This document shows, piece by piece, positions 2,440 to 55,292 of a stretch of DNA of 64,000 bases. The translations under genes and the position numbers were made by a program. The DNA comes from an uncultured Gammaproteobacteria bacterium (lineage in GTDB: Bacteria; Patescibacteriota; Patescibacteriia; UBA9570; XYC2-FULL-38-9), in the NCBI GenBank assembly GCA_964492735.1, contig CAZBLE010000003.1, forward strand, positions 6,279-70,278, read 5' to 3'. A model generated the notes under the pieces. The model was not told the DNA's origin and did no database searches. It worked only from the letters and a program-made list of their open reading frames with translations. Every line of letters starts with the position of its first letter. Position 1 is the stretch's first letter.

Positions 2440-3801
2440 TCAAACTCCCAACTCTTCAACCGCTGCTCGAAACTGATCTCCCCGATCTTCGTAATTTTTG
2501 AATATCGAATAACTTGGCGCAGCACATGACAGAAGCGCAACACCATCGGATGGTGTGTTCGCATAGGCAAACTCAACAGCCTCACGCATTGATTCTGTTT
2601 CAAAAAATTGCGTCCCGTATGCCACTTCCCCCCACTGCTCTCGAATGGTTTTTCCAGAATCTGGAAATAGAATAATATTTTTAATCTCTCGACGTTTGAG
2701 CTCGGCAATCAGCTCTGTAAAGTCATACCCCCGATCTAAGCCTCCCAAAAAAATCGTCTGGACCGCATCAATTGATCGCAATGCCGCAAGTGTCGCCTCT
2801 GGAGTTGTCGCGAGTGAATCATTCACAAACGTCACGCCTTTATATGTCCCAATAAGTTCTAAACGATGTGGTAATGGCTTAAAGGTTTTGAGTGCTTGTG
2901 CAATGGCTTCATTTTCTACCCGTAATTGTTTTGCGGCTGTGATAGCGAGTAATATATTTTTTGTATTATGCTCTCCAAGTAATTTACAATCTGAACGTGG
3001 AGCAATTTCTTCTGCATCAAAAAACAATAACCCATCACGAGAAGAAGCACCTTCGTGCACATTCGCCGCTGGCACAGGCAATGGTCGTGCGGCGGACTGA
3101 TCTACTCGAGCACACAATTCTGTGCTCGCGGCATTATAAATCACTAACTGCAATGCTGACTGCATTGTCGTAACACGTAATTTATCGCGGTAATACTCTT
3201 CAATGCTTCCATGGTAATCAATGTGTTCAGGAAATAACTCAGTAAGCACCGCAATCCCTGGTCCGCGATCCAATAACCGCGCTTGATAGCTACTAGTTTC
3301 TACGACATACACATCTTCAACTGTATTATGCTGCGCTAGCATTTCCACGCTAGAAATACCAATGTTCCCTACAAAATGCGCTTGCTTGCCTCCAGCGATC
3401 AACATGTCATAAATCAATGATGAAGTTGTCGACTTCCCTTTTGATCCAGTAACCATAATCACCGTCCCAAGGCATTCTCGTAAAAAAATCGCCGTTGCAT
3501 TTGTCATCAGACGTGCCGTTGCGAGCAATGGTGTTGTTGGTGGAATTCCAGGAGACACAACAACCAAATCCCATTCTTCTAAAGTTTCTGGGTATTTTTT
3601 ACCATAGAGCTCTGTCACTCCAGGCAGTGCAAATCGCACCTTCTGCTCATCTGCAATGGTCACTTCAATATCTGGGTATGCTGTTCGAAAATACATTGCC
3701 GCACCTTGCCCTTCTCGGCCCGCACCCAAAATTAATACACGCTTGCCGGCATGATGCTCAAAAAAGCTGTCGAGTTTTTCTGAATACAATTGTTCACTCA
3801 T
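2440..3801 (-). CDS. murD: UDP-N-acetylmuramoyl-L-alanine--glutamate ligase (MurD family; could be a MurD2-type L-Glu ligase)
   Basis: 453 aa. N-terminal Rossmann-like GAGREGQG, Mur-ligase P-loop TGSKGKST, and VVETSSYQ. Its start ATG overlaps the stop of the upstream ORF (ATGA). Confidence 0.85.
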   Translation of the reverse strand: MSEQLYSEKLDSFFEHHAGKRVLILGAGREGQGAAMYFRTAYPDIEVTIADEQKVRFALPGVTELYGKKYPETLEEWDLVVVSPGIPPTTPLLATARLMTNATAIFLRECLGTVIMVTGSKGKSTTSSLIYDMLIAGGKQAHFVGNIGISSVEMLAQHNTVEDVYVVETSSYQARLLDRGPGIAVLTELFPEHIDYHGSIEEYYRDKLRVTTMQSALQLVIYNAASTELCARVDQSAARPLPVPAANVHEGASSRDGLLFFDAEEIAPRSDCKLLGEHNTKNILLAITAAKQLRVENEAIAQALKTFKPLPHRLELIGTYKGVTFVNDSLATTPEATLAALRSIDAVQTIFLGGLDRGYDFTELIAELKRREIKNIILFPDSGKTIREQWGEVAYGTQFFETESMREAVEFAYANTPSDGVALLSCAAPSYSIFKNYEDRGDQFRAAVEELGV

Positions 3802-5174
3802 AAAATTGATTGTTTCATAATTTCAATAGCTGGGGCAAATTGCTGAGGAATGTGACTTACATCTCCAAACGCACGTACATCTTGTAATGCTGTTTCAGCA
3901 TCAAGCTCTGCATGAATGCGGTTATATGCCTGAATCAATATATCATTTACATAATCTGATTGAACACTTAATTGCTCCAATGCAATAATCATTTCGTTTG
4001 GTGTGCCGACACACTCAAATGGCTTAAACGCAGAAATCCCAAGAAGTTCTAAAAACACTTCTTCGTTTATGGCGTTTTCTAATGGGTTACTACCCATAAT
4101 TGCAATAAGCTCTTGTTTTGACATGTGTGGCGCTAAGAGCGTTCCAACAAAGACACACTTTGGACAGACTCCGCACCAATAGGCCGTGCTTGTAGTAGGT
4201 ACTGATGAAGTTTGTGTAAAATTCCGATTACAACTACTAAAGAGTCCTGACCATTTTTCACAATCTTGAATAAATAATTTGGTAATTTGAAATTCGTATA
4301 ATGGTCGCAATAGACTGCAATAAGCAACAGGAATTGCATGAAGCGAAAGATGCTCTTGCAACATAGTTTCAAATTCAAGACTCTTACTCCATTGGTGATT
4401 AATTTCTTCGCCAAGATATTGCACGTTTCCATAATTTGCACTGCGCTCATTACTCAAGACAACAGATGAATGACCATTCAACACCGCAACCGCGATACTG
4501 CTCAAAGCATAGATAACAGAAATAGGAATGTGCCCATTATATGCACCTGTACGATTCAGCTCAAATAATTGCGGATCGATTGTTCTCAACACACGATGAT
4601 GTGGCGTCCCAATTTTTTTCACCTGCTCTTCAATAATTGGATACACACCAAGACTCACTGTTTCAAATGCTATTCCTGCGCGCTGTAAAATACCAATGGT
4701 TGTCAGCGAATCCTTTCCTCCGCCAAGTGGAACCAGGACAGCTGCTGTGTGCGCAAGAGAATCTACTGACTCGGGCTTCGGCGCAATAACCTCATCTGTT
4801 GATGATGGAAATTGCACAAGTCCGTGAAAATCAATTCTATTTTGATAAAAAAATTCTCCCAGTCCTTTTGTATACACTGTGTTCCAAAATTCCGCATCTG
4901 CTTTTGAGAGTCTGCCTGACTGCACTTGCAATTGTTGAGAACACGCTGCTTTCCAATAACTCATGCCCAATGCAAGATGCAGATCAAATAACACACGTTG
5001 AAATGCCGCTGTGTTCCCCTGCGTCCCAGGTGCGTCAAATTGAACCGTTTCTGTAAAATGGACTGACTCTTTCCCTTGTTCTTCTATCCGATAGAAAAAA
5101 TGCGCAATCTTTTTGCCTGCGTCAAAATCAAATGACTCAAAAATAAACGTGGAATTGCTGGTAAACATACGCAA
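3798..5174 (-). CDS. PP-loop (SGGxDS-type) ATP pyrophosphatase superfamily protein, translationally coupled to murD; candidate MurL-like glutamate epimerase
   Basis: 458 aa. Has VLVPLGGGKDSLTT (PP-loop) near residue 150 and a C-terminal CGVCPKC cysteine cluster. Stop overlaps the murD start (ATGA at 3798-3801). Confidence 0.6.
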   Translation of the reverse strand: MRMFTSNSTFIFESFDFDAGKKIAHFFYRIEEQGKESVHFTETVQFDAPGTQGNTAAFQRVLFDLHLALGMSYWKAACSQQLQVQSGRLSKADAEFWNTVYTKGLGEFFYQNRIDFHGLVQFPSSTDEVIAPKPESVDSLAHTAAVLVPLGGGKDSLTTIGILQRAGIAFETVSLGVYPIIEEQVKKIGTPHHRVLRTIDPQLFELNRTGAYNGHIPISVIYALSSIAVAVLNGHSSVVLSNERSANYGNVQYLGEEINHQWSKSLEFETMLQEHLSLHAIPVAYCSLLRPLYEFQITKLFIQDCEKWSGLFSSCNRNFTQTSSVPTTSTAYWCGVCPKCVFVGTLLAPHMSKQELIAIMGSNPLENAINEEVFLELLGISAFKPFECVGTPNEMIIALEQLSVQSDYVNDILIQAYNRIHAELDAETALQDVRAFGDVSHIPQQFAPAIEIMKQSIL

Positions 5175-10758: not shown

Positions 10759-13700
10759 TTACTGTAATAATGAATTTACATCTGCCACAACTGGGCTACG
10801 TTCATCTACATTTGCAAACTGCTTTGTTGAACGAAAAACCGGAATATCTGTTGTTTTTCCATTCACTACAAAACGAAAATACAATGTATGGTCTAAATTT
10901 GCCGACACACTGACCGGAATAAATTCAAACTGCGCGGAGGCAGTTTTGTAAGACATTATCAGTTGGAAATCATTGAAGTCGTTATCAGTACCGTCTTCGA
11001 ATTTTAATAACGTCTGACCACGTGCAAGTGAGACAGATTGGGCCTTTGGACTGTACTGAGCACTGCTTCGTTCATTACCAAAACGGATAAAGCTTTGAAA
11101 GCGTGCATCTTGAAGAGAAAATTGTACTTTTAATTTTTTGTTTTTTGTTGTGCGGTTACGAGCCGTTACATTATAGACATCTTTTCCTCCTGTCGCTTTA
11201 CTTGCTACGGTTAATGTCCGAGCAGATTTTTTTGCCGGGATATCTTTTACGACATACGAAACCGTAATCGTTCGCGTTGCACCTACTGCAAGTGGTTTAT
11301 TTTTTAATACATTATTCCAGACAAGTGTTCCTTTCTTTTTTGTTGAATTTGGCTTCACTGTACCTTTTTTAAACTTCAAGGTTGCCTTTGGATATGTTTG
11401 AGTAAGTTTTAATTTCGTTAAACTTGCTTCACCCGTATTTTTAATCTTCACTGTATATTTCACTGTCTTGCCTTTTGCAACAGTCGGATATTTTCCTTTT
11501 TTCGCTTTTGGTGAGATGAGCTTTTGCTGAATAGTATATGACGATGTCACTGATGCACGAGTAAATGTCACACTTGTTGCAGAACTTACGTTCCCTGCCG
11601 CATCCATTGCGACAATGCTAATTGCCTGAGACCCTACAGCAAGCGCACTTGTCGCTGTACAATTCCATGTACCATCGCTGCCAACGGTCGTTGTGCACAG
11701 TGTATTACTATTATTGTCACGAACAATGACAGTCGCAAGAGCCTCGGCCGTTCCTTGGAAGGTTGGTGTTTTAGTTTGAACAACGCCTGTGCTTGTTACA
11801 ATAGACGCATTACCACCGTTACTCGCAACAATCACCGGTGCATTTGGTGCAGTTGTGTCAGATGATGGAGTCGGACTTGGTGTAGTAGCAACAATCACAT
11901 AGCCAGCTTGTGTTGCTGGTGTCGCGACATTTCCAAGCGCATCTTGTGCAGCAATTTTCAAATTTCCTGAACTGGTAATTGCAATTGTACAATCTACTTG
12001 TGTACCAGATGTTTGTGTACAAGAAATTGCATCATGGCCAGCAGTTGTTGCAGCATCAACAGTCACTGCGCTACTACTAATCGCTCGAGCGTCTGTGACA
12101 CGAATTGTTGTATTTGTAATTGTTGTTGTCGCAGATAGTGTTGGAGCTGTAATTGCAATCACTGGTGCGGTTGCATCAATCGTAAATGAAGCAACGTTTA
12201 ATACATTCGATGCGTTACCTGCAGCGTCAGTGACTGTAATCGTACAATTTGTGTGTGCGCCATCAGCAAGCTCTGCAAATGTGATTGTGTTTGAGCCAAC
12301 CGAAGCTGACACCGCACTTGATGCGCAATCCCCACCATATGAAAGACTTCCTGCTTCATTGGTTGTGAATGTATAGTTCGGTGTGTTATCTGTGGTTGGA
12401 GTTGAAACAGGCGTCACGACTAAGATTGTTGGCGCTACTGCATCAATCGTAAATGACGCAACGTTTAATGTATTTGAAACATTTCCAATTGTATCAGTTA
12501 CAGTGATTGTACAATTTGTATGCGCGCCGTCAGCGAGTGTATTAAAAGTAATGGTATTTGAACCTGAACTTGCAGATGTTGTTGCGGATGAACAATCACC
12601 ACCATAGGAAATCGTTCCCGCTTCATTGGTTGTGAATGTATAACTTGGTGTGTTATCTGTGGTGGGAGTTGAAACAGGTGTTACTTCTGAGATTGTTGGT
12701 GCAGTTGCATCAACCGTAAATGAAGCGACATTTAACGTATTTGATGCATTGCCTGCAGCGTCGGTTACAGTGATTGTACAGTTTGTATGTGCACCATCAG
12801 AAAGTGTATTAAAAGTAATGGTATTTGAACCTGAATTTGCAGATGTTGTTGCGGATGAACAATCACCACCATAGGAAATCGTTCCTGCTTCGTTGGTTGT
12901 GAATGTATAACTTGGTGTGTTATCTGTGGTTGGAGTTGAAACAGGCGTTACTTCTGAGATTGTCGGCGCTCCTGAATCAATGACAATATTTTTATTCGCC
13001 GCAAGCGTTGTTCCAGGAGTAAAATCAGTCAATGTATTTAACGCATGATCTTTAATCGTTCCGGAAATAGTTGCATCTAAGTCAGCAGTTGTGTCCCCTT
13101 CTTGTACAATATAATTACATGTTCCTGTTCGAGAATCGGTAATCGTAAATGTACATGTTTGATCAGTCGTTCCTGTTTCGAGCGTCACGGTCACACTCCC
13201 AGTTGAAGTCACTGGCTCAGAAAATGTCACATCAATATCAATCGAATCCCCAGGGCTATATGAACCATTTGCCGCATCTGAAGAAATAGAATCGATAACA
13301 GGGGTCGCACCAGTCTCAACAACTAGTGTAACTGCGAGACCACTCATCGCATTTCTCAATTGTGTTATCCCTACAATTGAAGGGGGTGTTGTTGTTGAAT
13401 TGCCTAATGTATCAATGATTGAATATGAAAGAATGCTCGCAATTTGTAAATCTGAATCATCTTCTCCAGAAGCTGAATCTCCCACTACATAGTTTGCTGC
13501 AATAATATTTCCACCATATGCCGGGTTGTAAGCAAGATCCACTTCAACACCATTCGTTAAACGGACAGTCATGATTGAGGCTGAATTCAACGTTCTTGCA
13601 AATTGCGCCCCAATGAGAATTGTTTGACCAGTTGTGTAGGTTCCGCTTGTAGTAAGTGTCGCAAACTGTGTCAAAGCTGGCGCACTGGTTGCAATAGTAA

Positions 13701-15993
13701 AAGATGTAATAGACAGTGCTGCGCTGGTGTTCCCTGAACCAAAATCAACCAGATCAGTCACTGTTAAACGACAGTTTGTGTAACTCCCATCTGATAGTGC
13801 GCCGCCGGATCCATTTGAATCGAGGGTAATTGTGTTGCTTCCACTGCTCGCACTCGTTGTCGTGCTTCGGCAACTTCCTAGTGTAAACGCAATTGTACCA
13901 GCTTCGTTGGTTGTAAAAATATAATTTGGCGTTGTGTCATTTGTCGGCGTTGTCACCGCGGTGATTTCTGAAACAGTTGGCCCAGTTGTATCAACAACAA
14001 TATCTTTCGCCCCTCCAATATTATTCAAACCTGACGGAACTAATGAATTAGTTCGTGTATTTGGTGATGTAGCAAGATCAGTAACACTTTCAGAATTAAT
14101 CATTGACACTGTTAAATCCCCAGTTCCTCCACCCGCTCCTGTTGATGGGACTGTGTATGTTCCAGTTAATGTCGCTGTTGCTACTACACCACTTAAACTA
14201 ACAGAGCCACTATTATTAAGGGTAACTTGCATCGTTGAGGATGCATTGATTGTTTCATCATATGTCGCCGTGATCGTAATAACTGCCCCTGGGCCATATC
14301 GACCACTTGTTGAATCTGTTGTAAACGATTGTAATACAGGCGCGGTCGTATCTGGTGGCGCGCTGGTGGTGAATGTTCCAGTTTGCACTCCTGTGCGTGT
14401 AATATCATCACTCGAATCAACAGTATCAATTCGATAATAATATATAGTACTCGCACTTAAGCCAGTAATTGTTTTTGAATGACTCGTACCAAGTGTTCCT
14501 GTGTTTGCTGTAGCACCTGACAAGCCACCTTCACTAGTCGCAATATAAATTTTTGGTTTTAACGTTTCTGTTGAAGAAAATAAAAATGATACCTGACTAC
14601 TTGTTGGCGTAACTGTTGGTGTTGAAATCGTACCATCAAAAACAGTTGTGGAAACAGAGTTCGTTGGAATTGGGTTATTGTTAAAAGTCAAAATGACAAT
14701 TGATTGACCCGATGTTAAGCTCCCTGTTAAATCACCGCCTGCAACAGTTGCGGAAAAAGAAGAGCTTGAAATTGCCTTTGTTCCTTTATAGACACCACCT
14801 TGGTAGATCATGGCTGAGCCAGTTGATGCGCCAGATAATGCCTCAACGCTGGTTGTTTTTGCAACAATACTTGATGCTGCAGAAAATGGCTCTGAACCAC
14901 TATCATATGCAATATATTGCGTTGCAGCACTATCAAATGTGTTAAATCCAGCAACAACATTACTTGGTGTTGAGTCTTGTAAGTCAATAGCAAGTTGGTT
15001 TCCAGAAAATGTATTTCCATCTGCCGCAAGGCCTGCTCCATTACTCGCACCAATACGGATATCTGAAGGTGAGTCACTGATACAAAATCCACGTTGAGTA
15101 GACTCAATCGTAATTGTATTAGAACGATAGATATGACTACTTCCTCCTATCATGCGGACAGCACAATTATTATTGGAGATAATCGTGTCATCAATAGTCA
15201 CGTTCGTTGCGCTACTGAATTCAAAACCATGAGACGTTGAATTCAATGATTGTGTATTTGTTACTGTCACTCCAGAAGCAGAGCTTGCAGCAATATTTGG
15301 CTGCGATGAAGAATCAACAATCACATTATCAATTACTGTATTCGTTGCGGTACTTGCTACTAAAATACCGTAATTCACAGTTCCATCAACAGTACCGCCG
15401 ATATTGCGACCGATAATTGTGTGTTGAATTGTTGTATTTGCAGAACTAGTGGTAATACCTCGACGTCCGCCATAGATAAATACTTTTTGACCTGTCAGTG
15501 AGCCAGAACCAATTGTGACAAAATCAGAGGTAATATCGAGAGCGCCAGAGCCGATTCCGACAGTGTCCATACAATCTTTCATCGCAATACCCTCAAGTAC
15601 ACTGTTGTCTGAGCCAGGGCCGAAAGAAAGACAATATGGCCGAACAGACGCATCGCCAGTTGATCCGTCAAGAATCAGATCAATTGTTGATGTATCAGTA
15701 TTTTGAAAAACGGCCTTTCGCTGAATAATAGGCAATCCCGTTGATAGTGTGACTGTTTGTGTTCCACCTGCATTTTCAAGTGAAATAATACAATCATCAC
15801 TCGCGCTAATAGCGTTGCAATCAATAATCGCTTTACGAATAGAGCCCGCGCCAGAATCATTGGCGTTACTGACCGTGAATGTTGAAGTAGCCGCCTGCGC
15901 ACTAGTTACTGAAAACAAGCAAAAAAAGAGGCTAAATGCAGCTCCTGCAATGAATCGAACAGACTGTCTATTTTTGATATTTTTTTTACGCAT
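10759..15993 (-). CDS. giant exported Thr/Ser-rich surface protein with tandem Ig-like repeats (adhesin/S-layer-like)
   Basis: 1744 aa. N-terminal signal peptide MRKKNIKNRQSVRFIAGAAFSLFFCLFSVTSAQA. At least three near-identical ~89-aa repeats (TPVSTPTTDNTPSYTFTTNEAG...CTITVTDAAGNASN), with a more diverged copy upstream. Lys-rich C-terminal segment. Confidence 0.8.
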   Translation of the reverse strand: MRKKNIKNRQSVRFIAGAAFSLFFCLFSVTSAQAATSTFTVSNANDSGAGSIRKAIIDCNAISASDDCIISLENAGGTQTVTLSTGLPIIQRKAVFQNTDTSTIDLILDGSTGDASVRPYCLSFGPGSDNSVLEGIAMKDCMDTVGIGSGALDITSDFVTIGSGSLTGQKVFIYGGRRGITTSSANTTIQHTIIGRNIGGTVDGTVNYGILVASTATNTVIDNVIVDSSSQPNIAASSASGVTVTNTQSLNSTSHGFEFSSATNVTIDDTIISNNNCAVRMIGGSSHIYRSNTITIESTQRGFCISDSPSDIRIGASNGAGLAADGNTFSGNQLAIDLQDSTPSNVVAGFNTFDSAATQYIAYDSGSEPFSAASSIVAKTTSVEALSGASTGSAMIYQGGVYKGTKAISSSSFSATVAGGDLTGSLTSGQSIVILTFNNNPIPTNSVSTTVFDGTISTPTVTPTSSQVSFLFSSTETLKPKIYIATSEGGLSGATANTGTLGTSHSKTITGLSASTIYYYRIDTVDSSDDITRTGVQTGTFTTSAPPDTTAPVLQSFTTDSTSGRYGPGAVITITATYDETINASSTMQVTLNNSGSVSLSGVVATATLTGTYTVPSTGAGGGTGDLTVSMINSESVTDLATSPNTRTNSLVPSGLNNIGGAKDIVVDTTGPTVSEITAVTTPTNDTTPNYIFTTNEAGTIAFTLGSCRSTTTSASSGSNTITLDSNGSGGALSDGSYTNCRLTVTDLVDFGSGNTSAALSITSFTIATSAPALTQFATLTTSGTYTTGQTILIGAQFARTLNSASIMTVRLTNGVEVDLAYNPAYGGNIIAANYVVGDSASGEDDSDLQIASILSYSIIDTLGNSTTTPPSIVGITQLRNAMSGLAVTLVVETGATPVIDSISSDAANGSYSPGDSIDIDVTFSEPVTSTGSVTVTLETGTTDQTCTFTITDSRTGTCNYIVQEGDTTADLDATISGTIKDHALNTLTDFTPGTTLAANKNIVIDSGAPTISEVTPVSTPTTDNTPSYTFTTNEAGTISYGGDCSSATTSANSGSNTITFNTLSDGAHTNCTITVTDAAGNASNTLNVASFTVDATAPTISEVTPVSTPTTDNTPSYTFTTNEAGTISYGGDCSSATTSASSGSNTITFNTLADGAHTNCTITVTDTIGNVSNTLNVASFTIDAVAPTILVVTPVSTPTTDNTPNYTFTTNEAGSLSYGGDCASSAVSASVGSNTITFAELADGAHTNCTITVTDAAGNASNVLNVASFTIDATAPVIAITAPTLSATTTITNTTIRVTDARAISSSAVTVDAATTAGHDAISCTQTSGTQVDCTIAITSSGNLKIAAQDALGNVATPATQAGYVIVATTPSPTPSSDTTAPNAPVIVASNGGNASIVTSTGVVQTKTPTFQGTAEALATVIVRDNNSNTLCTTTVGSDGTWNCTATSALAVGSQAISIVAMDAAGNVSSATSVTFTRASVTSSYTIQQKLISPKAKKGKYPTVAKGKTVKYTVKIKNTGEASLTKLKLTQTYPKATLKFKKGTVKPNSTKKKGTLVWNNVLKNKPLAVGATRTITVSYVVKDIPAKKSARTLTVASKATGGKDVYNVTARNRTTKNKKLKVQFSLQDARFQSFIRFGNERSSAQYSPKAQSVSLARGQTLLKFEDGTDNDFNDFQLIMSYKTASAQFEFIPVSVSANLDHTLYFRFVVNGKTTDIPVFRSTKQFANVDERSPVVADVNSLLQ
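12095..12960 (-). repeat. three near-identical ~267-nt tandem repeats inside the giant surface-protein gene
   Basis: Plus-strand antisense ORFs at 12383..12607 and 12650..12874 are 267 nt apart and nearly identical. The protein shows three TPVSTPTTDNTP...ATAPTISEV units. Confidence 0.85.
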
Positions 15994-16003
15994 TTCGTCT
16001 ATT

Positions 16004-16037
16004 ATTATACCGTATCTTGTATTATACCGTATCTTGG
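16004..16037 (-). promoter_or_regulatory. tandem direct repeat (2 x 17 bp ATTATACCGTATCTTGK), each unit carrying a TATAAT box on the minus strand, immediately upstream of the giant surface-protein start
   Basis: Minus strand reads CCAAGATACGGTATAAT ACAAGATACGGTATAAT AATAGACGAA ATG. A -35-like TTGCAA lies 17 nt upstream of the distal TATAAT. No Shine-Dalgarno sequence before the ATG. Confidence 0.6.
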
Positions 16038-16252
16038 CACTTTTTGCAAGTGTGGCTAATGCTAGGGAAATGATGAGTGTGTAACAGGAGTTGGTGAGTG
16101 TCGTTGTCTTTTAAATAGAGAAAACCTGGCGCATGAGATCAGAGATGTGATCATGCATGCGTCAGGGAGAGGCCAGCTGCTGTGTCGTTGTGATCTGTGT
16201 GTAGATCAGCGAACGATGTGAGCTGCCTCTCAACCGGTGTTGCTCAGCTGTT

Positions 16253-18274
16253 TTACGGCTGAGCGAACAGCGGGTGCGGGCCGTCGGCGATGGCCCAGTT
16301 GTGTGTGGTCTGGCTACCGTCGGGCCAAACGACCTCAACTTGCGCCGAAGCCTGGTTGCTGCCCAGGTCGAGGCAGAAGTCGGAGTCGAGGCCGTTCCGG
16401 TAGCCGGTCGGCTGCTCCCGGAGGACCTCAACGCCGCCCACGGTGACAGTCACGCGCGACAACGAGCCGTTTCGCGGGACAGTCACGCCGTTGCCGGCCA
16501 AGCTTCCGCAAAAGCGGTTTCCGGTTGCGATGCTGTCGTTGCGGAGGTACTTGGGATTCCCCTCATACACTCCGCTGACAACGCAGTCAGCGTCGCCGTC
16601 GTTGTCGAAGTCCGCGCAGACCATCTGGCGATGGTTGCCGCGCGTGGCGTCGGCGCCCATCGTGTCGTTGATGCCGATGCGAGACGGCGGGTAGGGGTAC
16701 GTCATCCCCATCTGGCCGCCCGTGCCGCGAACCGCCATATGCGCCGTGATCGGCTGGCCGTTGGTCGGGCACTCCGCAGCGCCAGGGCAGGTGCCGTTGT
16801 ACCCCCGGCCGTCGTGCCCCCACGGGGTGAGGAACGACGTCGCGACTTGCCCGTCCGGCAAGTAGCGCGTCGTCTCGCCGCCCATTTCCCAAGGGATGGG
16901 GCGCACGGGCGGACCCGGCTCGAAAACGCACGCTGCGCCGAGGCCCTGGCCGCCAGCCAGGGACCAGTCGGCCAACTGCGGGACGTTCCCGGTGTTGTCG
17001 AACCAGAGGTCCGACCCTGGATCGCGGCCGTAAGCCGAGAAACAGAGGTCGTTGCTGCTGGTCGACACCAACAGGTCGGGCCAGTTGTCGCCGTCGAGAC
17101 TGGTAAAGAGGCCGCCCATCGGGCGGCTCCAAGCCAATTGACTCCAACCAGAAGTCCCGTCCTGCTCCACGAAGCGTGGCCAGCCGTCGGTGGTCGTGCC
17201 GTCCCGGACGAAAACGCCGGTCGGCGATCCGCCCATGGGCGATCCCATCGCCCAGATGGTCAGCGACCCGTCGGGGCCGGGCAAGGCCAGCCAGGTGTAG
17301 AGATCGCTTCTCGCGCCAGGGAGGCGCTCGAAGTTTTGACTCGCAACCCAGCCTCCGCCCGGCTGCTGGAAGAACGTCCACGGCAGACTGTCTCGCGACA
17401 TCAAGAGAATGTCGAGCAGCCCATTTCCGTCGATGTCCCAGACGCCCGGGATCGGGCGGATCGTGAACCCGGCACCGCGCCAGGCGGCGTCAAAGGAAGG
17501 GTCAGGCGCCCAGCGACCGTCCGGCTGACGCTCAAAAACGAGCCCAAGCGGCGAAGCCGCCAGGATCTCGACCTGCCCGTCGCCGTCGAGGTCGACGAGG
17601 TCAAGGTAGTTGACCTCGGTCGCCGTTGAGATCCGCGGGTCGAACCCACGCTCGAGGAGACCTGCAGCGACGAAGTCGCCAATCCCGTCCCGAGGGACGG
17701 TCCAGGTTCCCGTCGCCGGGTCGAGCGTGCGGATCGCTCCGCGATAGCTCGACCCGACCCACCGCATGTCAAAGAGACACACCAAGGAGTCGTCCGCCGG
17801 ACCAGCCCAACCGCCCTTGGTGCAGGCGGCGGGATGCCGCTGCACCGGGCGCGGCCCAATGTCGTCCTCCAACCACCCCGCCATGGGCTGGCAGTTGGTG
17901 GGGACGTCGGGCGGACAGATGTCGCCCGCGAGCTCGGTGTAGGTCAGCTGCGGGTAGTCCCCGAGCTGCGTTCCGAGCGCGGTGGGAACGACGGGTGGGA
18001 CGACGTCGGTGTCAGCCGTGTCGACGGTGTCGGTGTCATCCGTGACCTCCCACGCGGGAGTCGTGTCGGTGCCTGCCGACTCATCCGAGTCGTCCGTGCC
18101 ACCTCCCGCCTCAGGCGGGATGGTGTCGTCGGAGGACGGGGGAATCGTGTCCGTCGTGTCGACGGTGTCGATGTCGGGGTGGGGCTGGCGGAAGCCAGCT
18201 CCCACGTCCTCGATGACCTGACAACCGGAGGTGAAAGCGAAGAAGCCAAAAACCAGAGCGCGAAGGGTCGTCAT
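16253..18274 (-). CDS. FG-GAP/VCBS-repeat lipoprotein (ASPIC/UnbV, CRTAC1-like), GC-rich foreign gene
   Basis: ~67 % GC against a ~45 % backbone. Lipobox-type signal MTTLRALVFGFFAFTSGC. Repeated DxDGDG loops (VDLDGDGQVE, WDIDGNGLLD, CADFDNDGDADC). GGAG Shine-Dalgarno sits 6 nt before the ATG at 18274. The longest ORF extends to 18346. Confidence 0.75.
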   Translation of the reverse strand: MTTLRALVFGFFAFTSGCQVIEDVGAGFRQPHPDIDTVDTTDTIPPSSDDTIPPEAGGGTDDSDESAGTDTTPAWEVTDDTDTVDTADTDVVPPVVPTALGTQLGDYPQLTYTELAGDICPPDVPTNCQPMAGWLEDDIGPRPVQRHPAACTKGGWAGPADDSLVCLFDMRWVGSSYRGAIRTLDPATGTWTVPRDGIGDFVAAGLLERGFDPRISTATEVNYLDLVDLDGDGQVEILAASPLGLVFERQPDGRWAPDPSFDAAWRGAGFTIRPIPGVWDIDGNGLLDILLMSRDSLPWTFFQQPGGGWVASQNFERLPGARSDLYTWLALPGPDGSLTIWAMGSPMGGSPTGVFVRDGTTTDGWPRFVEQDGTSGWSQLAWSRPMGGLFTSLDGDNWPDLLVSTSSNDLCFSAYGRDPGSDLWFDNTGNVPQLADWSLAGGQGLGAACVFEPGPPVRPIPWEMGGETTRYLPDGQVATSFLTPWGHDGRGYNGTCPGAAECPTNGQPITAHMAVRGTGGQMGMTYPYPPSRIGINDTMGADATRGNHRQMVCADFDNDGDADCVVSGVYEGNPKYLRNDSIATGNRFCGSLAGNGVTVPRNGSLSRVTVTVGGVEVLREQPTGYRNGLDSDFCLDLGSNQASAQVEVVWPDGSQTTHNWAIADGPHPLFAQP

Positions 18275-18714
18275 GGGAACTCCAGAGCTCGCACGCAGCG
18301 AGTTCATGGGTGGAACGAGACTGCAAACGGCACTATGCCATCGCAATCATTCTCTCTATCATCCAAATACCCCACGACAAAAATGCAATTACTGCATCGC
18401 TGTCCTGAGGCCTCTGGATGATAGAGACGAAACTAGATGAAAAATTCAATTTTCAAAGAATGCAAAAAATTCCAAGTTGGAACTTGCACTACTTACTATA
18501 TCCCATATTTTGACAAAAAAGTCAAGCATTTTTTGGCTAACCTCTGTTGATATTTTCTTAATACGAAAAAGGCCAGAAATACGCAGATGCACGGGGAGCT
18601 GGTCGCTCGCAGTTGTACAAAAGCCTATTCCTGGCGTGCCGAGAGACTCTCGGTAACTTACCTCAATCAGCCTGACTGACATTTCCGCCGTTATCAGCCG
18701 GGCCGATTTTTTTC

Positions 18715-18987
18715 TCACATGAGCAAGGGGTCGGTCAAAGCCTGCCCACCCCACTCGCAACGCCAAGGGCGTGCAAACGGGTCGAAGAAGATCCTCTGCC
18801 GATACTCCCAGGCCCGGAGCTCGAGCTCCTGGATGCTCTCCGGGTCTCGAAGTCCCTTGCAGGCCTCCGTGAACTCCTCCGCGAGCTCAGCAAGCTCCGC
18901 CTCCTGAGCTTCACTGGGCGCGACAGCCCAGTAGAGAGTCGAGTACGCTGCAATGAAGATCCCACTCAACAAAAGAAACTCCCGCAC
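18715..18987 (-). CDS. small GC-rich secreted protein (90 aa), hypothetical
   Basis: GTG start preceded by GGAGG. N-terminal signal-like MREFLLLSGIFIAAYSTLYWAVAPSEA. GC-rich like the adjacent FG-GAP gene. Confidence 0.35.
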   Translation of the reverse strand: MREFLLLSGIFIAAYSTLYWAVAPSEAQEAELAELAEEFTEACKGLRDPESIQELELRAWEYRQRIFFDPFARPWRCEWGGQALTDPLLM

Positions 18988-19121
18988 GAGACCTCCAGCT
19001 CATGAGCGTAAGTGCTCATTTGTTGACTGATTATACAATTTTTCGCCCAAAAGTCAAGAAAATAAGCTTGTTATTCGGTCATTTTTCGGCTTTTAAAAAA
19101 CTGTGCTATACTCCACAAACT

Positions 19122-27526: not shown

Positions 27527-29131
27527 TTATTGCGCTTCCATGGCACGACCCGTTTCTTTGGCTGCTTCAAAGATAGACGTCGTAAGAGCTTTCCAATGTT
27601 CCTGGCTGAAGAAATTTGGATCTGGATGCTCAATCTGCTCAGCGATTAACACTTCCATCGTATCCGTCACTTCATCATTCACTGACTGGATTGTTTTGAC
27701 CACTTGATTTTTGGTCGTATCCACAACAACGGTTGTACGAACAGCATCTGGCTGATCTGTATATCGATAGACAACGGTCATAAGCGCTCCATCCGTCACT
27801 TGAGATTCCACAACTCCATAATTACGAAATTGATCAATATACCGCTCTGGACTGAGTGCCCATTTCTGCATATTGGTCTCCCAATTTTTATCAGCACCTT
27901 GAAGCGCATCAGCTTGATAGTCCAGAATTAACTGATCATTAAACGCTTGCACCTCTTCAGCGGTGAGTGCTGTGACTGTATTTGTTTCAAGATCATAATG
28001 ATAGACATCGGATCGCATAACAGTTTCAAACGTTGCTTCAGAAAAATTTCCTTGTCCAAGCTCGACAATTTTTTCATAAGACAACTGAACTAAAAATTGG
28101 GTTTCACGAGCAATATTTTCTGGTTCATTCGGCAGCGTTTCCATATTGCGGGTGCTTCCAAAATTTCCAATAACCGCAAACTGATTTTCATACCCTTCTG
28201 TCGTTTTCTTATTTGCAACAACATCTTCTGGATGCAATTGCGGATTAAAGAGAAATGGCTTCCAATGCGTTTTGTCGCGCGTTGTTGGCTTGTCTGTTAG
28301 TGTATTATAGGTATTTGTCCATACTCGAAGACGTGGCATGATTGTTCCAACTGGCTCGACCTCTCCGTGTGATAGAGCTTCTGGCATTTCTGGCAACGGT
28401 GCCGATGTTGTGACTGACAATGTTTTCACTGGGCCATCATATCCTTCATGTTCAATAACCATTGGCTTCATCACTGTAATTTTTTCACCTATCAGAGCTG
28501 GCGTACGTGCTGCAACATTCACATCAACGCGATTACATGCAACTGCCATATCTGTCACGTGCGCATCATCAAAGAAACAATTTTCAGAAGTTTGCGCATT
28601 CATGACATGATTCAGGGTTGATACAATTCCTGCATATGGCTCTCCATTGAGCGGCTGCGTACGAATACTCATCATACCCACGAGTGGTTGACTCCACGTT
28701 TCAACAACTTGATTTCCATCCCATTGCTTTGAGATTGTTGTATAGTTAATTTTCATATGACGAATCGCTTGAGCGGATGTTCCAAATGTATTGGTAATAG
28801 AATCCGCAACAACTGACTCGGCTGATTGGTTTGTGATATTTGCAATTGGTGAATTGGTTCGTGCAAATTTTTGACCTGCCTGCTGAATAGCGAGTGGTCC
28901 ACCTGCGAGAACAAATACTAACGCTCCAACAGCAAGTGCGCTGGCTGGAATCAGTAATCGCAACCACCGACGGCGATATGTTGATGTGTGCATAGAATAT
29001 ATCTGATAAGTTCGATACGCTTGAATTGTTGCATAACGCAATTCTTCAGTGTGGTCTGTGCGCTCTGGAATCGGAACAGCCCGCAATAGCTGCTCGAGTG
29101 ATTCTTCAAATTGTGATGGTGAGTGTTTCAT
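27527..29131 (-). CDS. membrane-anchored anti-sigma-factor-like protein with large extracytoplasmic domain
   Basis: 534 aa. Single TM helix (LLIPASALAVGALVFVLAGG) after a ~60-aa cytoplasmic N-terminus. Lies immediately downstream of an ECF sigma gene. Paralogous to 29800..31395 (shared C-terminal NPxxFFSxxxWK). Confidence 0.6.
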   Translation of the reverse strand: MKHSPSQFEESLEQLLRAVPIPERTDHTEELRYATIQAYRTYQIYSMHTSTYRRRWLRLLIPASALAVGALVFVLAGGPLAIQQAGQKFARTNSPIANITNQSAESVVADSITNTFGTSAQAIRHMKINYTTISKQWDGNQVVETWSQPLVGMMSIRTQPLNGEPYAGIVSTLNHVMNAQTSENCFFDDAHVTDMAVACNRVDVNVAARTPALIGEKITVMKPMVIEHEGYDGPVKTLSVTTSAPLPEMPEALSHGEVEPVGTIMPRLRVWTNTYNTLTDKPTTRDKTHWKPFLFNPQLHPEDVVANKKTTEGYENQFAVIGNFGSTRNMETLPNEPENIARETQFLVQLSYEKIVELGQGNFSEATFETVMRSDVYHYDLETNTVTALTAEEVQAFNDQLILDYQADALQGADKNWETNMQKWALSPERYIDQFRNYGVVESQVTDGALMTVVYRYTDQPDAVRTTVVVDTTKNQVVKTIQSVNDEVTDTMEVLIAEQIEHPDPNFFSQEHWKALTTSIFEAAKETGRAMEAQ

Positions 29132-29137
29132 AAAAAG

Positions 29138-29647
29138 TTACACAATTGATTGAACAGACTGAACACTGTTTTTTAAACGCTTGATCGCCTGACTCAACAT
29201 GCTACTGACTGTTTTTTGATCAATGTCGAGCATCTCCGCAATTTCCACATTTGAAAAATCGGATTGGTATCGCAGCAAAAGAACCTCGCGCTGACGGTCA
29301 GTCAGGCTCCCAAGATGCTGTTGCAGCATTTCCAGATTCATCGCCGTGTCGAGCGCAATGTCTGGCATCTCTGCTGTATCAGCGACATCATAATCCGCGA
29401 TATCGTCTGTTTGCTTTTGTGTGCGGTAGTGGTCGATGACTGTATTGCGCGCAATGGTGTACATCCATTTACGAAATGCCAGCTCGTCATTTTTTGGCGC
29501 AAGAGCGTCATAATGGCGAACGACTTTTTCAAAAATCGCAGATACCAAATCTTCGGTTGTTTCCATGTGACTCACACGCAAATACACAAAACGATAAATC
29601 GGTTTATGATACGTGTCGAATAGCGCGGCGATTTGTTCAAGCGTCAT
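29138..29647 (-). CDS. RNA polymerase ECF-type sigma-70 factor
   Basis: 169 aa. Sigma-70 region 2 (PIYRFVYLRV, IARNTVIDHYR) and region 4 HTH (DRQREVLLLRY...IAEMLDIDQKTVSS). Confidence 0.85.
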   Translation of the reverse strand: MTLEQIAALFDTYHKPIYRFVYLRVSHMETTEDLVSAIFEKVVRHYDALAPKNDELAFRKWMYTIARNTVIDHYRTQKQTDDIADYDVADTAEMPDIALDTAMNLEMLQQHLGSLTDRQREVLLLRYQSDFSNVEIAEMLDIDQKTVSSMLSQAIKRLKNSVQSVQSIV

Positions 29648-29799
29648 GCTGATAGATTAATTATGTGAAGCATACTCTGCAGAGTACAACGTGTCACGAT
29701 AAACATGACTACACAGACTACGACGACCGAGCAGCGAAAGTACGTATGACTATCAAAAAAGCCCCTATTTCAGGGCTTTTTTATGTGGTATTCGTATCT

Positions 29800-31901: not shown

Positions 31902-32142
31902 AGGATATGTGTGCAGCGCACATGACTGATAACGACAAGTTGCGCAGAATACGTCAAAGGGAGTTTATGAGAGGCGTTATCCGTTACAAAATACATTTTT
32001 TTTGAGTGATTGTAATAACCAAAATGTGCCGCGTGATGCATTCCTTGGGAGAATATGCAAAACGCGACACCGAAGGCGGCCTCAAACAGCTGAACGATGT
32101 GATGTCGTTGTGACATCGCTCAGGTGTGAGGCAAAGGCCTTC

Positions 32143-33129: not shown

Positions 33130-33365
33130 CTTGACCTCAATGTCTTTTATTTAGGCTGGCAGACTCACCAGTAAGACTTTTTTCAAAACGTATCAATGAA
33201 CAAAAAAGCACCACAATGGTGCATAAAACGGACAAAAATGTAGCTCAAAATAGGTAAAATGTCAAGCAATGGCGCATTATCCTTATAATAGAAAAAATGG
33301 ACGAATCCTGCATAGGCATTGTCAGTCACCGTTAGTCGCAGATTAGGCTGTACTTGCCCTTTACG

Positions 33366-55112: not shown

Positions 55113-55292
55113 ATAGAATAAAAAACAAACTGCACTATTTTTATTATTATAGCAAAAAATATTGAGTTTGTCCAGGTGCGCACGTATAACCTAAACAAGT
55201 AAGTCAACGCCTGTTATTCTCTACCATAATTGTTATTGTTGCATAACAACTCTGGAAGGGACTGATCAGCACGCACGCGGCGACATTCTGAT

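What the first reader, a model, noticed from the sequence alone, without database searches (positions are those of the whole stretch)
10759..15993. 1744-aa exported surface protein with near-identical 267-nt tandem repeats (recombination-prone, possibly length-variable)
Three repeat units share >90 % identity at the nucleotide level, and a fourth is more diverged. Such recent tandem repeats in an adhesin or S-layer-like protein are hotspots for slipped-strand or recombinational copy-number variation. They also often collapse in short-read assemblies, so the true copy number may be higher. The Lys-rich C-terminal ~250 aa, with KxKxK patterns, may be a cell-wall or nucleic-acid binding anchor.
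Basis: seen in the sequence. Interest (0 to 1): 0.5.

Follow-up and report, generated by a model that had tools for sequence, protein, structure and literature searches.

The report
Ig-repeat surface protein of a CPR bacterium
This is a real 1744-residue exported, adhesin-like surface protein of an uncultured Patescibacteria (CPR) bacterium; its three tandem Ig-like repeats are old and clearly diverged rather than near-identical, so it is a fairly ordinary, slowly length-evolving stalk, and its unusual C-terminal end is the most interesting part.

Summary
The ORF (10759-15993, minus strand, 1744 aa) and three in-frame 267-nt tandem units are real. The identity claim is wrong. The units are 88%, 76% and 73% identical at nucleotide level (92/82/81% aa), with dS 0.4 to about 1 and dN/dS 0.12-0.16, so the duplications are old and selectively maintained. 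Only the first 164 nt of R1/R2 are 96% alike.

Each unit is a Big_13 Ig-like domain. Four syntenic orthologues carry 3, 2, 0 and 0 tandem units, so copy number changed between species. Within-population variation is untested.

The Lys-rich stretch is about 130 aa, not 250. It is a confidently folded DUF11/CLIPPER beta-sandwich with net charge +29 and no isopeptide triad. It is followed by a DUF4114-like domain carrying the LecB Ca2+/sugar loop (EDGTDNDFND).

GroEL places the organism near Candidatus Kerfeldbacteria.

Best reading: a fibrillar-adhesin-like protein with a variable beta-helix head, an Ig stalk, and a conserved, portable, non-covalent C-terminal retention module.

In passing: the adjacent lipoprotein gene is a 67% GC island in a 43% GC genome, and this holds in all four genomes.

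The parts
10759..15993 (-). Whole gene, 1744 aa plus stop
   Evidence: ORF list. An identical protein, P0001, is in the public collection on a 100.6-kb NCBI contig.
15892..15993 (-). Signal peptide, aa 1-34 (basic n-region, hydrophobic core, AQA|AT)
   Evidence: Read directly from the translation. SAQAATSTFTV is conserved between the window protein and its closest orthologue P0002/L001; only Q-A-A-T is invariant across all four orthologues. No signal-peptide predictor was available.
14794..15891 (-). Right-handed beta-helix 'head', aa 35-400
   Evidence: Pfam Beta_helix PF13229 scores 44 bits (cutoff 25.9); NosD is weak. This is the most variable domain between orthologues, at 42-65% aa identity. 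The AF2 model failed (pLDDT 47).
14356..14619 (-). Fn3-like domain, aa 459-546
   Evidence: Pur_ac_phosph_N scores 27.5 bits, below its cutoff of 30. The domain is duplicated in L002 and L003.
13981..14355 (-). A-type stalk module A1, aa 547-671
   Evidence: No Pfam family. It recurs as A2 and A3, and it alternates with B modules in P0003.
13684..13980 (-).
   Evidence: 56% aa identical to R1. Big_13 is weak at 19.5 bits. Present and 85-92% conserved in all four orthologues.
12967..13683 (-). A-type stalk modules A2 (aa 771-895) and A3 (aa 896-1009)
   Evidence: No Pfam family above cutoff. 91-92% identical to L003 but only 52-72% identical to L001 and L002.
12700..12966 (-). Tandem unit R1, aa 1010-1098, Big_13 Ig-like domain with 2 Cys
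   Evidence: Big_13 scores 31.6 bits against a cutoff of 27. 88% nt identical to R2. It has no positional counterpart in L003.
12433..12699 (-). Tandem unit R2, aa 1099-1187
   Evidence: 83% nt and 92% aa identical to L003 unit U1.
12166..12432 (-). Tandem unit R3, aa 1188-1276
   Evidence: 83% nt and 94% aa identical to L003 unit U2. 73-76% nt identical to R1 and R2.
11542..12165 (-). Two further Ig-like domains, aa 1277-1372 (no family) and aa 1373-1484 (Big_13/Big_6)
   Evidence: Big_6 scores 49.1 bits and Big_13 48.9 bits. PDB 2yn3 matches at E 7e-9. The first of the two domains is absent from L002.
11143..11541 (-). Polybasic DUF11/CLIPPER beta-sandwich, aa 1485-1617 (net charge +29, pI 10.7)
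   Evidence: DUF11 scores 26.1 bits (cutoff 24.6) and TIGR01451 28.7 bits (cutoff 24). There are 871 hits in the representative library, almost all to this stretch. AF2 pLDDT is 79-96 per 10-residue block, mostly above 90. Foldseek matches 9ifr with TM 0.72. 77-86% conserved among orthologues.
10762..11142 (-). C-terminal DUF4114-like domain, aa 1618-1744
   Evidence: DUF4114 scores 20.3 bits, below its cutoff of 27, but 4 of 5 relatives match it. The only PDB sequence matches are LecB/PA-IIL lectins, E 0.02-0.65. The AF2 model is all-beta but weak, pLDDT 52-76.
10969..11001 (-). FEDGTDNDFND loop, aa 1665-1675, matching the LecB Ca2+/sugar-binding loop
   Evidence: Invariant in all five relatives. 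Aligned to LecB ...EDSTDNDYND by HMMER.
16003..16049 (-). Promoter-like TTGCAA-17-TATAAT, with a perfect 17-nt tandem duplication that doubles the -10 box
   Evidence: L001 has a single copy, with the -10 box 10 nt from the ATG.

Best explanation
The gene encodes a Sec-exported, fibrillar-adhesin-like surface protein of an uncultured Patescibacteria (CPR) bacterium related to Candidatus Kerfeldbacteria.

Architecture. A signal peptide is followed by a fast-evolving right-handed beta-helix 'head', probably the ligand- or glycan-binding end. Next comes an acidic stalk (pI about 4) of Fn3-like and Ig-like domains. These comprise three A-type modules, one conserved B' unit, three tandem Big_13 units R1-R3 and two further Ig-like domains. 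A conserved bipartite C-terminal module closes the protein. It consists of an unusually basic (+29), isopeptide-less DUF11/CLIPPER beta-sandwich and a DUF4114-like domain carrying the LecB-type two-calcium sugar-binding loop.

Function (inferred). I infer that the C-terminal module holds the protein non-covalently on the cell envelope. Electrostatic binding to an anionic polymer and Ca2+-dependent glycan binding would both contribute. The stalk would project the head outward.

The repeats. R1-R3 are stalk-lengthening modules created by unequal recombination. R2 and R3 predate the split from the L003 lineage. R1 is a later copy of R2, and its 5' 164 nt has been partly homogenised with R2 by gene conversion. 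The units are under purifying selection. Copy number has changed on an evolutionary timescale, and nothing indicates a fast switch.

Shown: ORF, domains, identities, orthologue copy numbers, charge, the loop motif, and a mosaic conservation pattern. Inferred: adhesion, which end is the anchor, and the ligands.
For: - ORF and repeat array.
- Domain families: Beta_helix, Big_13, Big_6, DUF11 and TIGR01451 above their cutoffs; DUF4114 below.
- Taxon: the closest named GroEL hits, at 73-75% identity, are Candidatus Kerfeldbacteria and other Patescibacteria.
- Orthologues: four loci share the order high-GC FG-GAP-like gene, target, SBP_bac_5, RNase J, TrpRS, with UvrD on the far side of the FG-GAP gene (truncated at the contig end in L002). 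SecG was called after the target only in the window and L001 and matched in L002; L002 has a second high-GC gene between target and SecG. They carry 3, 2, 0 and 0 tandem B units.
- Unit relationships: R2~U1 and R3~U2 at 83% nt; R1-R2 at 88%. dS and dN/dS are.
- Rate and mosaicism: the target is 61-69% identical between genomes whose RNase J is 85-95% and UvrD 83-97% identical. Against L003 the head is 43%, the middle 84-94% and the C-terminal domain 37% identical. Against L001 the head is 65% and the C-terminal domain 80% identical.
- DUF11 domain: confidently folded and structurally closest to cohesin, pilin and CLIPPER 9ifr domains. Typical DUF11 units have 2-10% K+R (29 of 30 at 6% or less), against a net charge of +29 here.
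- Portable module: the same bipartite C-terminal module ends an otherwise different 1729-aa protein, P0046.
- Anchor position: P0003 is built from the same A and B stalk modules and ends in PG_binding_1 (37.3 bits), a known wall anchor, at the equivalent position.
- LecB loop match.
- Literature: the FA-like definition, and the finding that about half of FA-like proteins lack a known anchor (PMC8286594). DUF11 = CLIPPER, a stalk domain of fibrillar adhesins, with some members lacking the isopeptide bond (PMC12617251). DUF4114 is a Ca2+/sugar-binding domain (PMC9109919, PMC11934332). Epibiotic Patescibacteria need multiple adhesins (PMC10633639).
Against: - No known anchor was found. There is no LPXTG motif or hydrophobic tail in the last 50 aa, and no SLH, LysM, GW or PG_binding domain.
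- DUF4114 is below Pfam's threshold, and the C-terminal domain model is of low confidence (pLDDT 52-76).
- The beta-helix could not be modelled, so an enzymatic head is not excluded.
- The C-terminal lectin-like domain could equally be the adhesive end.
- L003's C-terminal domain is only 37% identical, which is odd for a conserved self-anchor.
- There are no expression, localisation or binding data.
Confidence: 0.55

Rival explanations
1. S-layer or other structural envelope protein. The acidic multi-domain body would self-assemble into a lattice. The conserved basic C-terminal domain would bind a secondary cell-wall polymer, as in Lactobacillus SlpA-type proteins, where a conserved basic wall-binding third is joined to a variable assembly region (from my own knowledge).
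For: There is a strong charge dipole: pI 4.05 for residues 35-1484 against pI 10.65 for the DUF11 domain. The C-terminal module is conserved while the rest varies. The promoter is near-consensus with a very short leader. A weak SlpA_N hit has E 0.059.
Against: No SLH, CWB2 or SlpA family reaches its threshold. A beads-on-a-string Ig/Fn3 architecture with domain gain and loss between species is typical of stalks, not lattices. Domain deletions of 90-270 aa would be expected to disturb a lattice. Abundance is unknown.
Confidence: 0.18
2. Surface-displayed or secreted polysaccharide-active enzyme. The beta-helix (CASH/pectate-lyase-like) domain would cleave a host or environmental glycan. The Ig domains would be spacers, and the C-terminal lectin-like domain would act as a carbohydrate-binding module.
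For: Beta_helix PF13229 and NosD-like hits. LecB-like sugar-binding loop.
Against: No glycoside-hydrolase or lyase family matched, and no catalytic motif was identified. The head diverges to 42-65% between genomes whose housekeeping proteins are 83-97% identical, which is more typical of a binding or antigenic surface. The structure model failed.
Confidence: 0.12
3. One reading: an actively length-variable (contingency-type) locus. Near-identical repeats would recombine frequently, giving within-population copy-number variation, and the assembly would under-count copies.
For: Copy number differs between related genomes. R1 and R2 share a 164-nt stretch at 96% identity with a 49-nt perfect run, enough for occasional RecA-type exchange and suggestive of past gene conversion.
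Against: Overall identity is 73-88%, dS is 0.4 to about 1, and dN/dS is about 0.14. R2 and R3 have been kept as distinct orthologous positions since the split from L003. The units are distinguishable by short reads. Slipped-strand mispairing does not act on 267-nt units.
Confidence: 0.1
4. The polybasic C-terminal domain binds extracellular DNA. This would aid DNA scavenging or biofilm matrix formation rather than anchoring the protein.
For: Net charge of +29 over 133 aa. Patescibacteria depend on natural competence (PMC10633639).
Against: No nucleic-acid-binding family or fold was found. The domain is a DUF11/CLIPPER Ig-like sandwich, and it is coupled to a sugar-binding-type loop domain.
Confidence: 0.05

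Closest known systems
Fibrillar adhesin-like (FA-like) proteins as defined by Monzon et al. 2021 (PMC8286594), such as Gram-positive adhesins with an N-terminal adhesive domain, a repeated Ig-like stalk and a C-terminal wall anchor
   Same: A signal peptide, a terminal non-repeat head, a stalk of tandem Ig-like and Fn3-like domains, and a distinct C-terminal module. It evolves fast and as a mosaic. Stalk domain number differs between relatives.
   Different: It has no recognised anchor (LPXTG, SLH, LysM, GW or PG_binding). The head is a beta-helix of unknown ligand. The organism is a CPR bacterium. Adhesion itself was not tested.
CLIPPER (DUF11, PF01345) domains, crystal structure 9IFR (PMC12617251)
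   Same: Sequence-family membership and a CnaA-like beta-sandwich fold. It occurs in a long surface protein.
   Different: There is a single copy at the C-terminal end rather than a tandem stalk array. Net charge is +29, whereas usual units are acidic or neutral. The catalytic Asp and acceptor Asn of the isopeptide triad are replaced by Gln and Leu, and the Lys position is not fixed among orthologues.
LecB/PA-IIL family lectins and Pfam DUF4114 (Ca2+-dependent fucose/mannose binding)
   Same: The loop E-D-G-T-D-N-D-F-N-D matches the LecB Ca2+/sugar loop E-D-S/G-T-D-N-D-Y-N-D almost residue for residue, and it is invariant in all relatives.
   Different: The match covers only about 40 residues. 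In LecB the loop lies about 10 residues from the C-terminus, whose carboxylate completes the site. Here about 70 residues follow the loop. The Pfam score is below threshold. Neither the fold nor sugar binding is verified.
Non-covalent basic wall-binding modules, such as Listeria InlB GW repeats binding lipoteichoic acid, and the Lactobacillus SlpA C-terminal domain (from my own knowledge)
   Same: A conserved, strongly basic terminal module is attached to a variable extracellular body. Electrostatic retention on an anionic wall polymer is plausible.
   Different: There is no sequence or family relationship. The fold is an Ig-like sandwich, not SH3-like GW. The ligand is unknown.
Repeat-number-variable stalks, such as Rib, G5-E, Bap and Als-type repeats and RTX adhesin BIg arrays with near-identical units
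   Same: Tandem Ig-like units whose number differs between relatives.
   Different: Those arrays typically have many units at 95-100% nt identity and vary between strains. Here there are only three units at 73-88% identity, each stable enough to have an orthologous counterpart in another species.

Membership tests
Fibrillar adhesin-like protein (PMC8286594) | Extracellular | tested here: met
   The N-terminal signal-peptide pattern is conserved in all four orthologues. All recognised domains are extracellular types. No dedicated predictor was run.
Fibrillar adhesin-like protein (PMC8286594) | Stalk of tandemly repeated domains | tested here: met
   The stalk holds Fn3-like, three A-type, four B-type (Big_13) and two further Ig-like domains.
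Fibrillar adhesin-like protein (PMC8286594) | Adhesive region at a terminus | tested here: inconclusive
   The N-terminal Beta_helix (44 bits) is the most variable domain, but no known adhesive family matched and the AF2 model failed.
Fibrillar adhesin-like protein (PMC8286594) | Known surface-anchoring motif or domain | tested here: not met
   There is no LPXTG-type motif or hydrophobic tail in the last 50 aa (read). No SLH, LysM, GW, PG_binding or Por_Secre_tail family appeared in the Pfam scans. A candidate new anchor is proposed instead.
Big_13 (PF19077) Ig-like domain, for the 89-aa repeat unit | Score above Pfam's gathering threshold | tested here: met
   R1 alone scores 31.6 bits against a cutoff of 27. 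The whole protein scores 69.9 bits over 5 stretches.
DUF11 / CLIPPER (PF01345; TIGR01451) | Sequence-family thresholds | tested here: met
   DUF11 scores 26.1 bits (cutoff 24.6) when the C-terminal 260 aa are scanned alone, but 21.7 bits (below cutoff) in the full-length scan. TIGR01451 scores 28.7 bits against 24. There are 871 library hits.
DUF11 / CLIPPER (PF01345; TIGR01451) | CnaA-like Ig beta-sandwich fold | tested here: met
   AF2 pLDDT per 10-residue block is 79-96 (mostly above 90) and the domain is all-beta. Foldseek to 9ifr gives TM(target) 0.72 and rmsd 3.9.
DUF11 / CLIPPER (PF01345; TIGR01451) | Intramolecular Lys-Asn isopeptide triad (Lys, catalytic Asp, Asn; PMC12617251) | tested here: not met
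   In the alignment with 26 canonical units, the window protein has Gln at the Asp column (TQTYP against TDTYD) and Leu at the Asn column (RTLTV against TTNTA). The Lys shifts position among orthologues. The paper notes that some DUF11 domains lack the bond.
DUF4114 (PF13448) / PA-IIL (LecB) lectin | Pfam gathering threshold | tested here: not met
   It scores 20.3 bits against a cutoff of 27, although 4 of 5 relatives match at E<=1, the best at E 3.7e-4.
DUF4114 (PF13448) / PA-IIL (LecB) lectin | Ca2+/sugar-binding acidic loop E-D-x-T-D-N-D-[YF]-N-D | tested here: met
   FEDGTDNDFND is invariant in five relatives and aligns to LecB EDSTDNDYND. LecB-family lectins are the only PDB sequence matches.
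DUF4114 (PF13448) / PA-IIL (LecB) lectin | Lectin fold and actual Ca2+ and sugar binding | not testable with these tools
   The C-terminal domain model has pLDDT of only 52-76. Binding needs experiment.
Contingency / rapidly length-variable repeat locus | Near-identical tandem units (95% nt identity or more) | tested here: not met
   Identities are 88%, 76% and 73% nt, with dS 0.40-1.15. Only a 164-nt sub-stretch of R1/R2 reaches 96%.
Contingency / rapidly length-variable repeat locus | Copy-number polymorphism within a population or between strains | not testable with these tools
   No reads were available. Between species the count is 3, 2, 0 and 0. The two strain-level contigs found through the identical SecG end before the repeats.
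S-layer protein | SLH, CWB2 or SlpA-type domains | tested here: not met
   The only hit is SlpA_N at E 0.059, 14 bits against a cutoff of 27.

The most novel reading that the evidence does not exclude
The conserved C-terminal pair may be a previously undescribed, portable, non-covalent envelope-retention module. The pair is an isopeptide-less CLIPPER domain of net charge +29 followed by a LecB-loop domain. In this CPR lineage it might dock onto a wall glycan. Alternatively it might dock onto the strongly acidic D/T/P-rich stalk (net -22 to -26 over 110 aa) of the lipoprotein encoded next door. That neighbouring gene is itself a high-GC, apparently foreign, fast-evolving gene kept at this locus in all four genomes.
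Probability: 0.12. Interest if true: 0.6.

Novelty: new member of a known kind. Interest (0 to 1): 0.3.

Why it matters
Large surface proteins are the main candidates for how CPR/Patescibacteria epibionts recognise and hold on to their hosts, and almost none have been characterised. This gene gives a clean example of how such a protein evolves. The head is swapped or diverges quickly, stalk Ig modules are gained and lost, and the C-terminal module is kept. About half of all predicted fibrillar adhesins have no known anchor (PMC8286594). A basic CLIPPER plus LecB-loop module shared by unrelated proteins is a concrete, testable candidate for a new one. As a repeat-variation finding it is ordinary.

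Tried and rejected
- A word-indexed homology search with the C-terminal 264 aa found nothing, not even the protein itself. The exhaustive HMMER search then found 871 hits.
- Two metagenome-contig scans were uninformative. The target alignment found no relative. The island-lipoprotein alignment found one 26%-identical relative in a uniformly 55% GC contig.
- Exact-sequence look-ups for the target and the SBP gene found no contig. The SecG look-up found only two short contigs that end 86 and 133 codons into the target's 3' end, before the repeats. No strain-level copy-number comparison was therefore possible.
- AF2 on the beta-helix head, with a two-sequence alignment, gave pLDDT 47. It was not used for fold search.
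- A PDB profile search with the DUF11 alignment did not retrieve 9IFR by sequence. The link to CLIPPER rests on Pfam, TIGRFAM and Foldseek.
- Rfam found no RNA family in the window.
- The 'Bdellovibrionales bacterium' label on L002 is rejected as a guide to taxonomy. GroEL places the window among Patescibacteria near Kerfeldbacteria. L002 shares 95% RNase J identity with the window.
- Partner-lipoprotein idea: P0046, the distant protein with the same C-terminal module, sits among purine-biosynthesis genes with no FG-GAP lipoprotein next to it. The idea is therefore kept only as a low-probability reading.
- Slipped-strand mispairing is rejected on unit length. Assembly collapse is rejected as unlikely, given 31-71 mismatches per unit pair.
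Full report
**1. The observation**

The ORF is exactly as stated: 10759..15993 on the minus strand, 1744 aa. Its N-terminus reads as a Sec signal peptide: MRKKNIKNRQSVR, then a hydrophobic core, then AQA|ATS. This pattern is conserved in the orthologues.

Tandem Repeats Finder reports a period-267 array with score 997 and 86% matches. In frame there are three 89-aa units:
- R1: aa 1010-1098, window 12700-12966
- R2: aa 1099-1187, window 12433-12699
- R3: aa 1188-1276, window 12166-12432

A fourth, more diverged unit exists (B', aa 672-770, 13684-13980). It is 56% aa identical to R1 and 70% identical over 117 nt to the 5' end of the array (12877-12993). It is separated from the array by two other domains.

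The quantitative claim fails. Nucleotide identity is 88.4% (R1-R2), 76.4% (R1-R3) and 73.4% (R2-R3). Protein identity is 92%, 82% and 81%. Nei-Gojobori estimates give dS 0.40 for R1-R2 and 0.9-1.15 against R3, with dN/dS 0.12-0.16. These are old duplications kept under purifying selection.

There is one nuance. The 31 R1/R2 mismatches are very unevenly placed: 6 fall in the first 164 nt (96% identity) and 25 in the last 103 nt (76%). The longest perfect run is 49 nt. This looks like a past gene-conversion tract and leaves some substrate for homologous exchange.

**2. What the repeat unit and the rest of the protein are**

R1 alone scores as a Big_13 Ig-like domain (31.6 bits, cutoff 27). Each unit has two conserved Cys. 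The full layout is as follows:
- signal peptide
- right-handed beta-helix, aa about 35-400 (PF13229, 44 bits)
- Fn3-like domain
- A1, B', A2, A3
- R1, R2, R3
- an unassigned two-Cys Ig-like domain
- a Big_13/Big_6 domain (49 bits; PDB 2yn3 at E 7e-9)
- the C-terminal module

The A-type modules match no Pfam family. They recur, alternating with B modules, in another protein, P0003.

**3. The organism**

The window carries housekeeping genes: iPGM, MurD, MurL, TrpRS, RNase J, UvrA, UvrC, UvrD, GroEL, FtsK, RpoB and RpoC. The closest named relatives of its GroEL, at 73-75% identity, are Candidatus Kerfeldbacteria, followed by other Patescibacteria.

One orthologous contig is labelled 'Bdellovibrionales bacterium'. 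Its RNase J is 95% identical to the window's, so I regard that label as wrong. The host is therefore a CPR bacterium. In that group, epibiotic growth has been shown to need several adhesins (PMC10633639).

**4. Copy number in relatives**

Three syntenic orthologues were recovered. The shared order is high-GC FG-GAP-like gene, target, SBP_bac_5, RNase J, TrpRS, with UvrD on the far side of the FG-GAP gene. SecG was called after the target in the window and L001 and matched in L002; it was not checked in L003. L002 also has a second high-GC gene between target and SecG.

| Locus | Length | Tandem B units | Other differences |
|---|---|---|---|
| Window | 1744 aa | 3 | |
| L003 | 1754 aa | 2 | extra Fn3-like domain |
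| L001 (P0002) | 1574 aa | 0 | a single Fn3-like domain in their place |
| L002 | 1472 aa | 0 | also lacks the next Ig-like domain; extra Fn3-like domain |

L003's two units are positional orthologues of R2 and R3, each at 83% nt identity. R1 is closer to R2 (88%) than to anything in L003. R2 and R3 therefore predate the split from the L003 lineage, and R1 is a later copy of R2. B' is present and 85-92% conserved in all four.

Length does vary, but between species. An independent assembly reproduces the R2/R3 structure, and every unit pair differs at 31-71 positions. Both facts argue against assembly artefact or collapse. Within-population variation could not be tested. Exact-sequence look-ups returned only two short contigs that stop before the repeats. 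The metagenome scan found no relatives.

**5. Evolutionary mode**

The protein evolves much faster than its neighbours. It is 61-69% identical overall, against RNase J at 85-95%, UvrD at 83-97% and SBP at 74-86%.

It is also mosaic:

| Compared with | Head | Middle domains | DUF11 | C-terminal domain |
|---|---|---|---|---|
| L003 | 43% | 84-94% | 77% | 37% |
| L001 | 65% | 59-86% | 85% | 80% |

This points to recombination between alleles. The head is the most variable part, and the basic DUF11 domain is among the most constant.

**6. The C-terminal end**

The Lys-rich stretch is only about 130 aa (23% Lys). The last 125 aa are 5.6% Lys.

*Residues 1485-1617* are a DUF11 domain, recently renamed CLIPPER (PMC12617251).
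- DUF11 scores 26.1 bits (cutoff 24.6) and TIGR01451 28.7 bits (cutoff 24).
- An exhaustive HMMER search found 871 proteins. Nearly all matched this stretch, and many carried it in up to 41 tandem copies.
- AF2 models it as a beta-sandwich with pLDDT mostly above 90. Foldseek places it with cohesins, pilin domains and the CLIPPER crystal structure 9ifr, TM 0.72.
- The KxKxK pattern therefore reflects alternate residues on beta-strands, not a disordered tail.

Two things are unusual about this domain. First, canonical units have 2-10% K+R (29 of 30 at 6% or less) and are neutral to acidic. This one has 32 K+R against 3 D+E, giving net +29 and pI 10.7, on a protein whose remainder has pI 4.05. 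Second, the isopeptide triad described for CLIPPER is not conserved: the Asp column holds Gln, the Asn column holds Leu, and the Lys position drifts among orthologues.

*Residues 1618-1744* score below threshold for DUF4114 (20.3 bits against 27), although 4 of 5 relatives match. They contain FEDGTDNDFND, which is invariant in all five relatives. A profile search of the PDB returned only LecB/PA-IIL-family lectins (E 0.02-0.65), aligned on their EDSTDNDYND loop. From my own knowledge, that loop supplies the ligands for the two Ca2+ ions that bind the sugar in LecB. The literature describes DUF4114 as a Ca2+-dependent sugar-binding domain (PMC9109919) and as the mannose-binding domain of an Acanthamoeba adhesin (PMC11934332). 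The structure model of this part is weak (pLDDT 52-76), so I treat lectin function as a motif-level inference.

**7. Which end is the anchor**

Three lines of evidence bear on this.
- The same bipartite C-terminal module ends P0046. That protein has 1729 aa and a completely different N-terminal half, and it comes from a different genomic background.
- P0003, built from the same A and B stalk modules, ends in PG_binding_1 (37.3 bits). That is a recognised wall anchor in the FA-like survey (PMC8286594).
- The target has no LPXTG-type motif, no hydrophobic tail and no known anchor domain.

The position, portability and conservation of the module, plus its charge, make a non-covalent retention role the best inference. 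This would fit the finding that about half of FA-like proteins lack a known anchor (PMC8286594). The opposite orientation, with the lectin end binding the host, is not excluded. L003's very divergent C-terminal domain would fit host-specific binding as well.

**8. Verdict**

This is a real, fairly ordinary member of the fibrillar-adhesin-like class in an unusual organism. 'Recombination-prone, possibly length-variable' holds on an evolutionary timescale only. The rival readings and their confidences are:
- S-layer-type structural protein: 0.18
- surface enzyme: 0.12
- active contingency locus: 0.10
- extracellular-DNA binder: 0.05

The most original element is the polybasic, isopeptide-less CLIPPER domain paired with the LecB-loop domain.

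**9. Seen in passing**

The gene immediately upstream (16253-18346, minus strand) lies in a sharp 66% GC island (16118-18377; the gene itself is 67% GC), with GC3 of 0.82. The flanks have GC3 of 0.27-0.42, and the window overall is 45% GC.

A homologous high-GC gene occupies the same position in all four genomes, and L002 has a second copy downstream of the target. All five encode lipoproteins. Each has a lipobox and Cys, a 110-aa D/T/P-rich acidic linker (net -22 to -26) and an FG-GAP-like body. They are only 28-57% identical to each other, although the flanking genes are 83-97% identical. The promoter region between island segments is AT-rich (39% GC).

Further small high-GC islands at 18581-19031, 32008-33192 and 55229-55667 also encode proteins with a signal peptide or transmembrane segments. 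Misassembly is excluded by recurrence in independent MAGs. Old or repeated horizontal acquisition of envelope genes from a high-GC donor is the obvious hypothesis. No donor was found.

Noticed in passing
window 16118-18377 (ORF 16253-18346, minus strand); L001 7866-9773; L002 640-2700 and 7603-9705; L003 6370-8241: A single-gene high-GC island (island GC 0.66; gene GC 0.67, GC3 0.82) sits directly upstream of the target, in a genome region whose flanking genes are about 41-44% GC (GC3 0.27-0.42). A homologous high-GC gene (GC3 0.68-0.81) holds the same position in all four related genomes, and L002 has a second copy between the target and SecG. All encode lipoproteins with a roughly 110-aa acidic D/T/P-rich linker (net -22 to -26) and an FG-GAP-like body. 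They are only 28-57% identical to each other, while flanking housekeeping genes are 83-97% identical. Misassembly is excluded by the recurrence. No donor was identified.
   Followed up: partly
window 18581-19031, 32008-33192 (ORF 32143-33129, minus strand), 55229-55667 (ORF 55359-55649, minus strand), 63488-64000: Further short high-GC islands (GC 0.58-0.64). The ones with clear ORFs encode a roughly 89-aa protein with a hydrophobic N-terminus, a 328-aa protein with a signal peptide and no Pfam or NCBIfam match, and a 96-aa multi-TM protein. The high-GC genes in this window all appear to be envelope or secreted proteins.
   Followed up: partly
window 16003-16036 (minus strand, just upstream of the target's ATG at 15993): A perfect 17-nt tandem duplication (CAAGATACGGTATAATA x2) doubles the -10 box of a TTGCAA-17-TATAAT promoter. 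The orthologue L001 has one copy, with only 10 nt between the -10 box and the ATG, implying a nearly leaderless mRNA. This is the only truly recent tandem duplication at the locus and could alter expression.
   Followed up: partly
L002 (JBIIKE010000112.1): The record title says 'Bdellovibrionales bacterium'. However, the contig is syntenic with the window, and its RNase J is 95% identical to the window's. The window's GroEL groups with Candidatus Kerfeldbacteria and other Patescibacteria. The public taxonomic label is probably wrong.
   Followed up: partly
window 18353-18427: An imperfect 35-nt inverted repeat (77% complementary, 5-nt loop) lies in the long AT-rich leader between the promoter-like site and the start of the high-GC lipoprotein gene. 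It could be a regulatory RNA structure.
   Followed up: no
window 27527-31901: Two consecutive gene pairs (a 169-aa ORF followed by a 531-534-aa ORF: 31392-31901 with 29800-31395, and 29138-29647 with 27527-29131). The two large ORFs have no Pfam match; the 169-aa ORFs were not scanned. By size and order this looks like a tandemly duplicated two-gene cassette of unknown function; sequence similarity between the pairs was not checked.
   Followed up: no
window 2440-5174: MurD sits next to a MurL-like epimerase (NF041275 at 359 bits, below its equivalog cutoff of 700). This suggests the MurD2/MurL route to D-Glu in peptidoglycan in this CPR genome.
   Followed up: no
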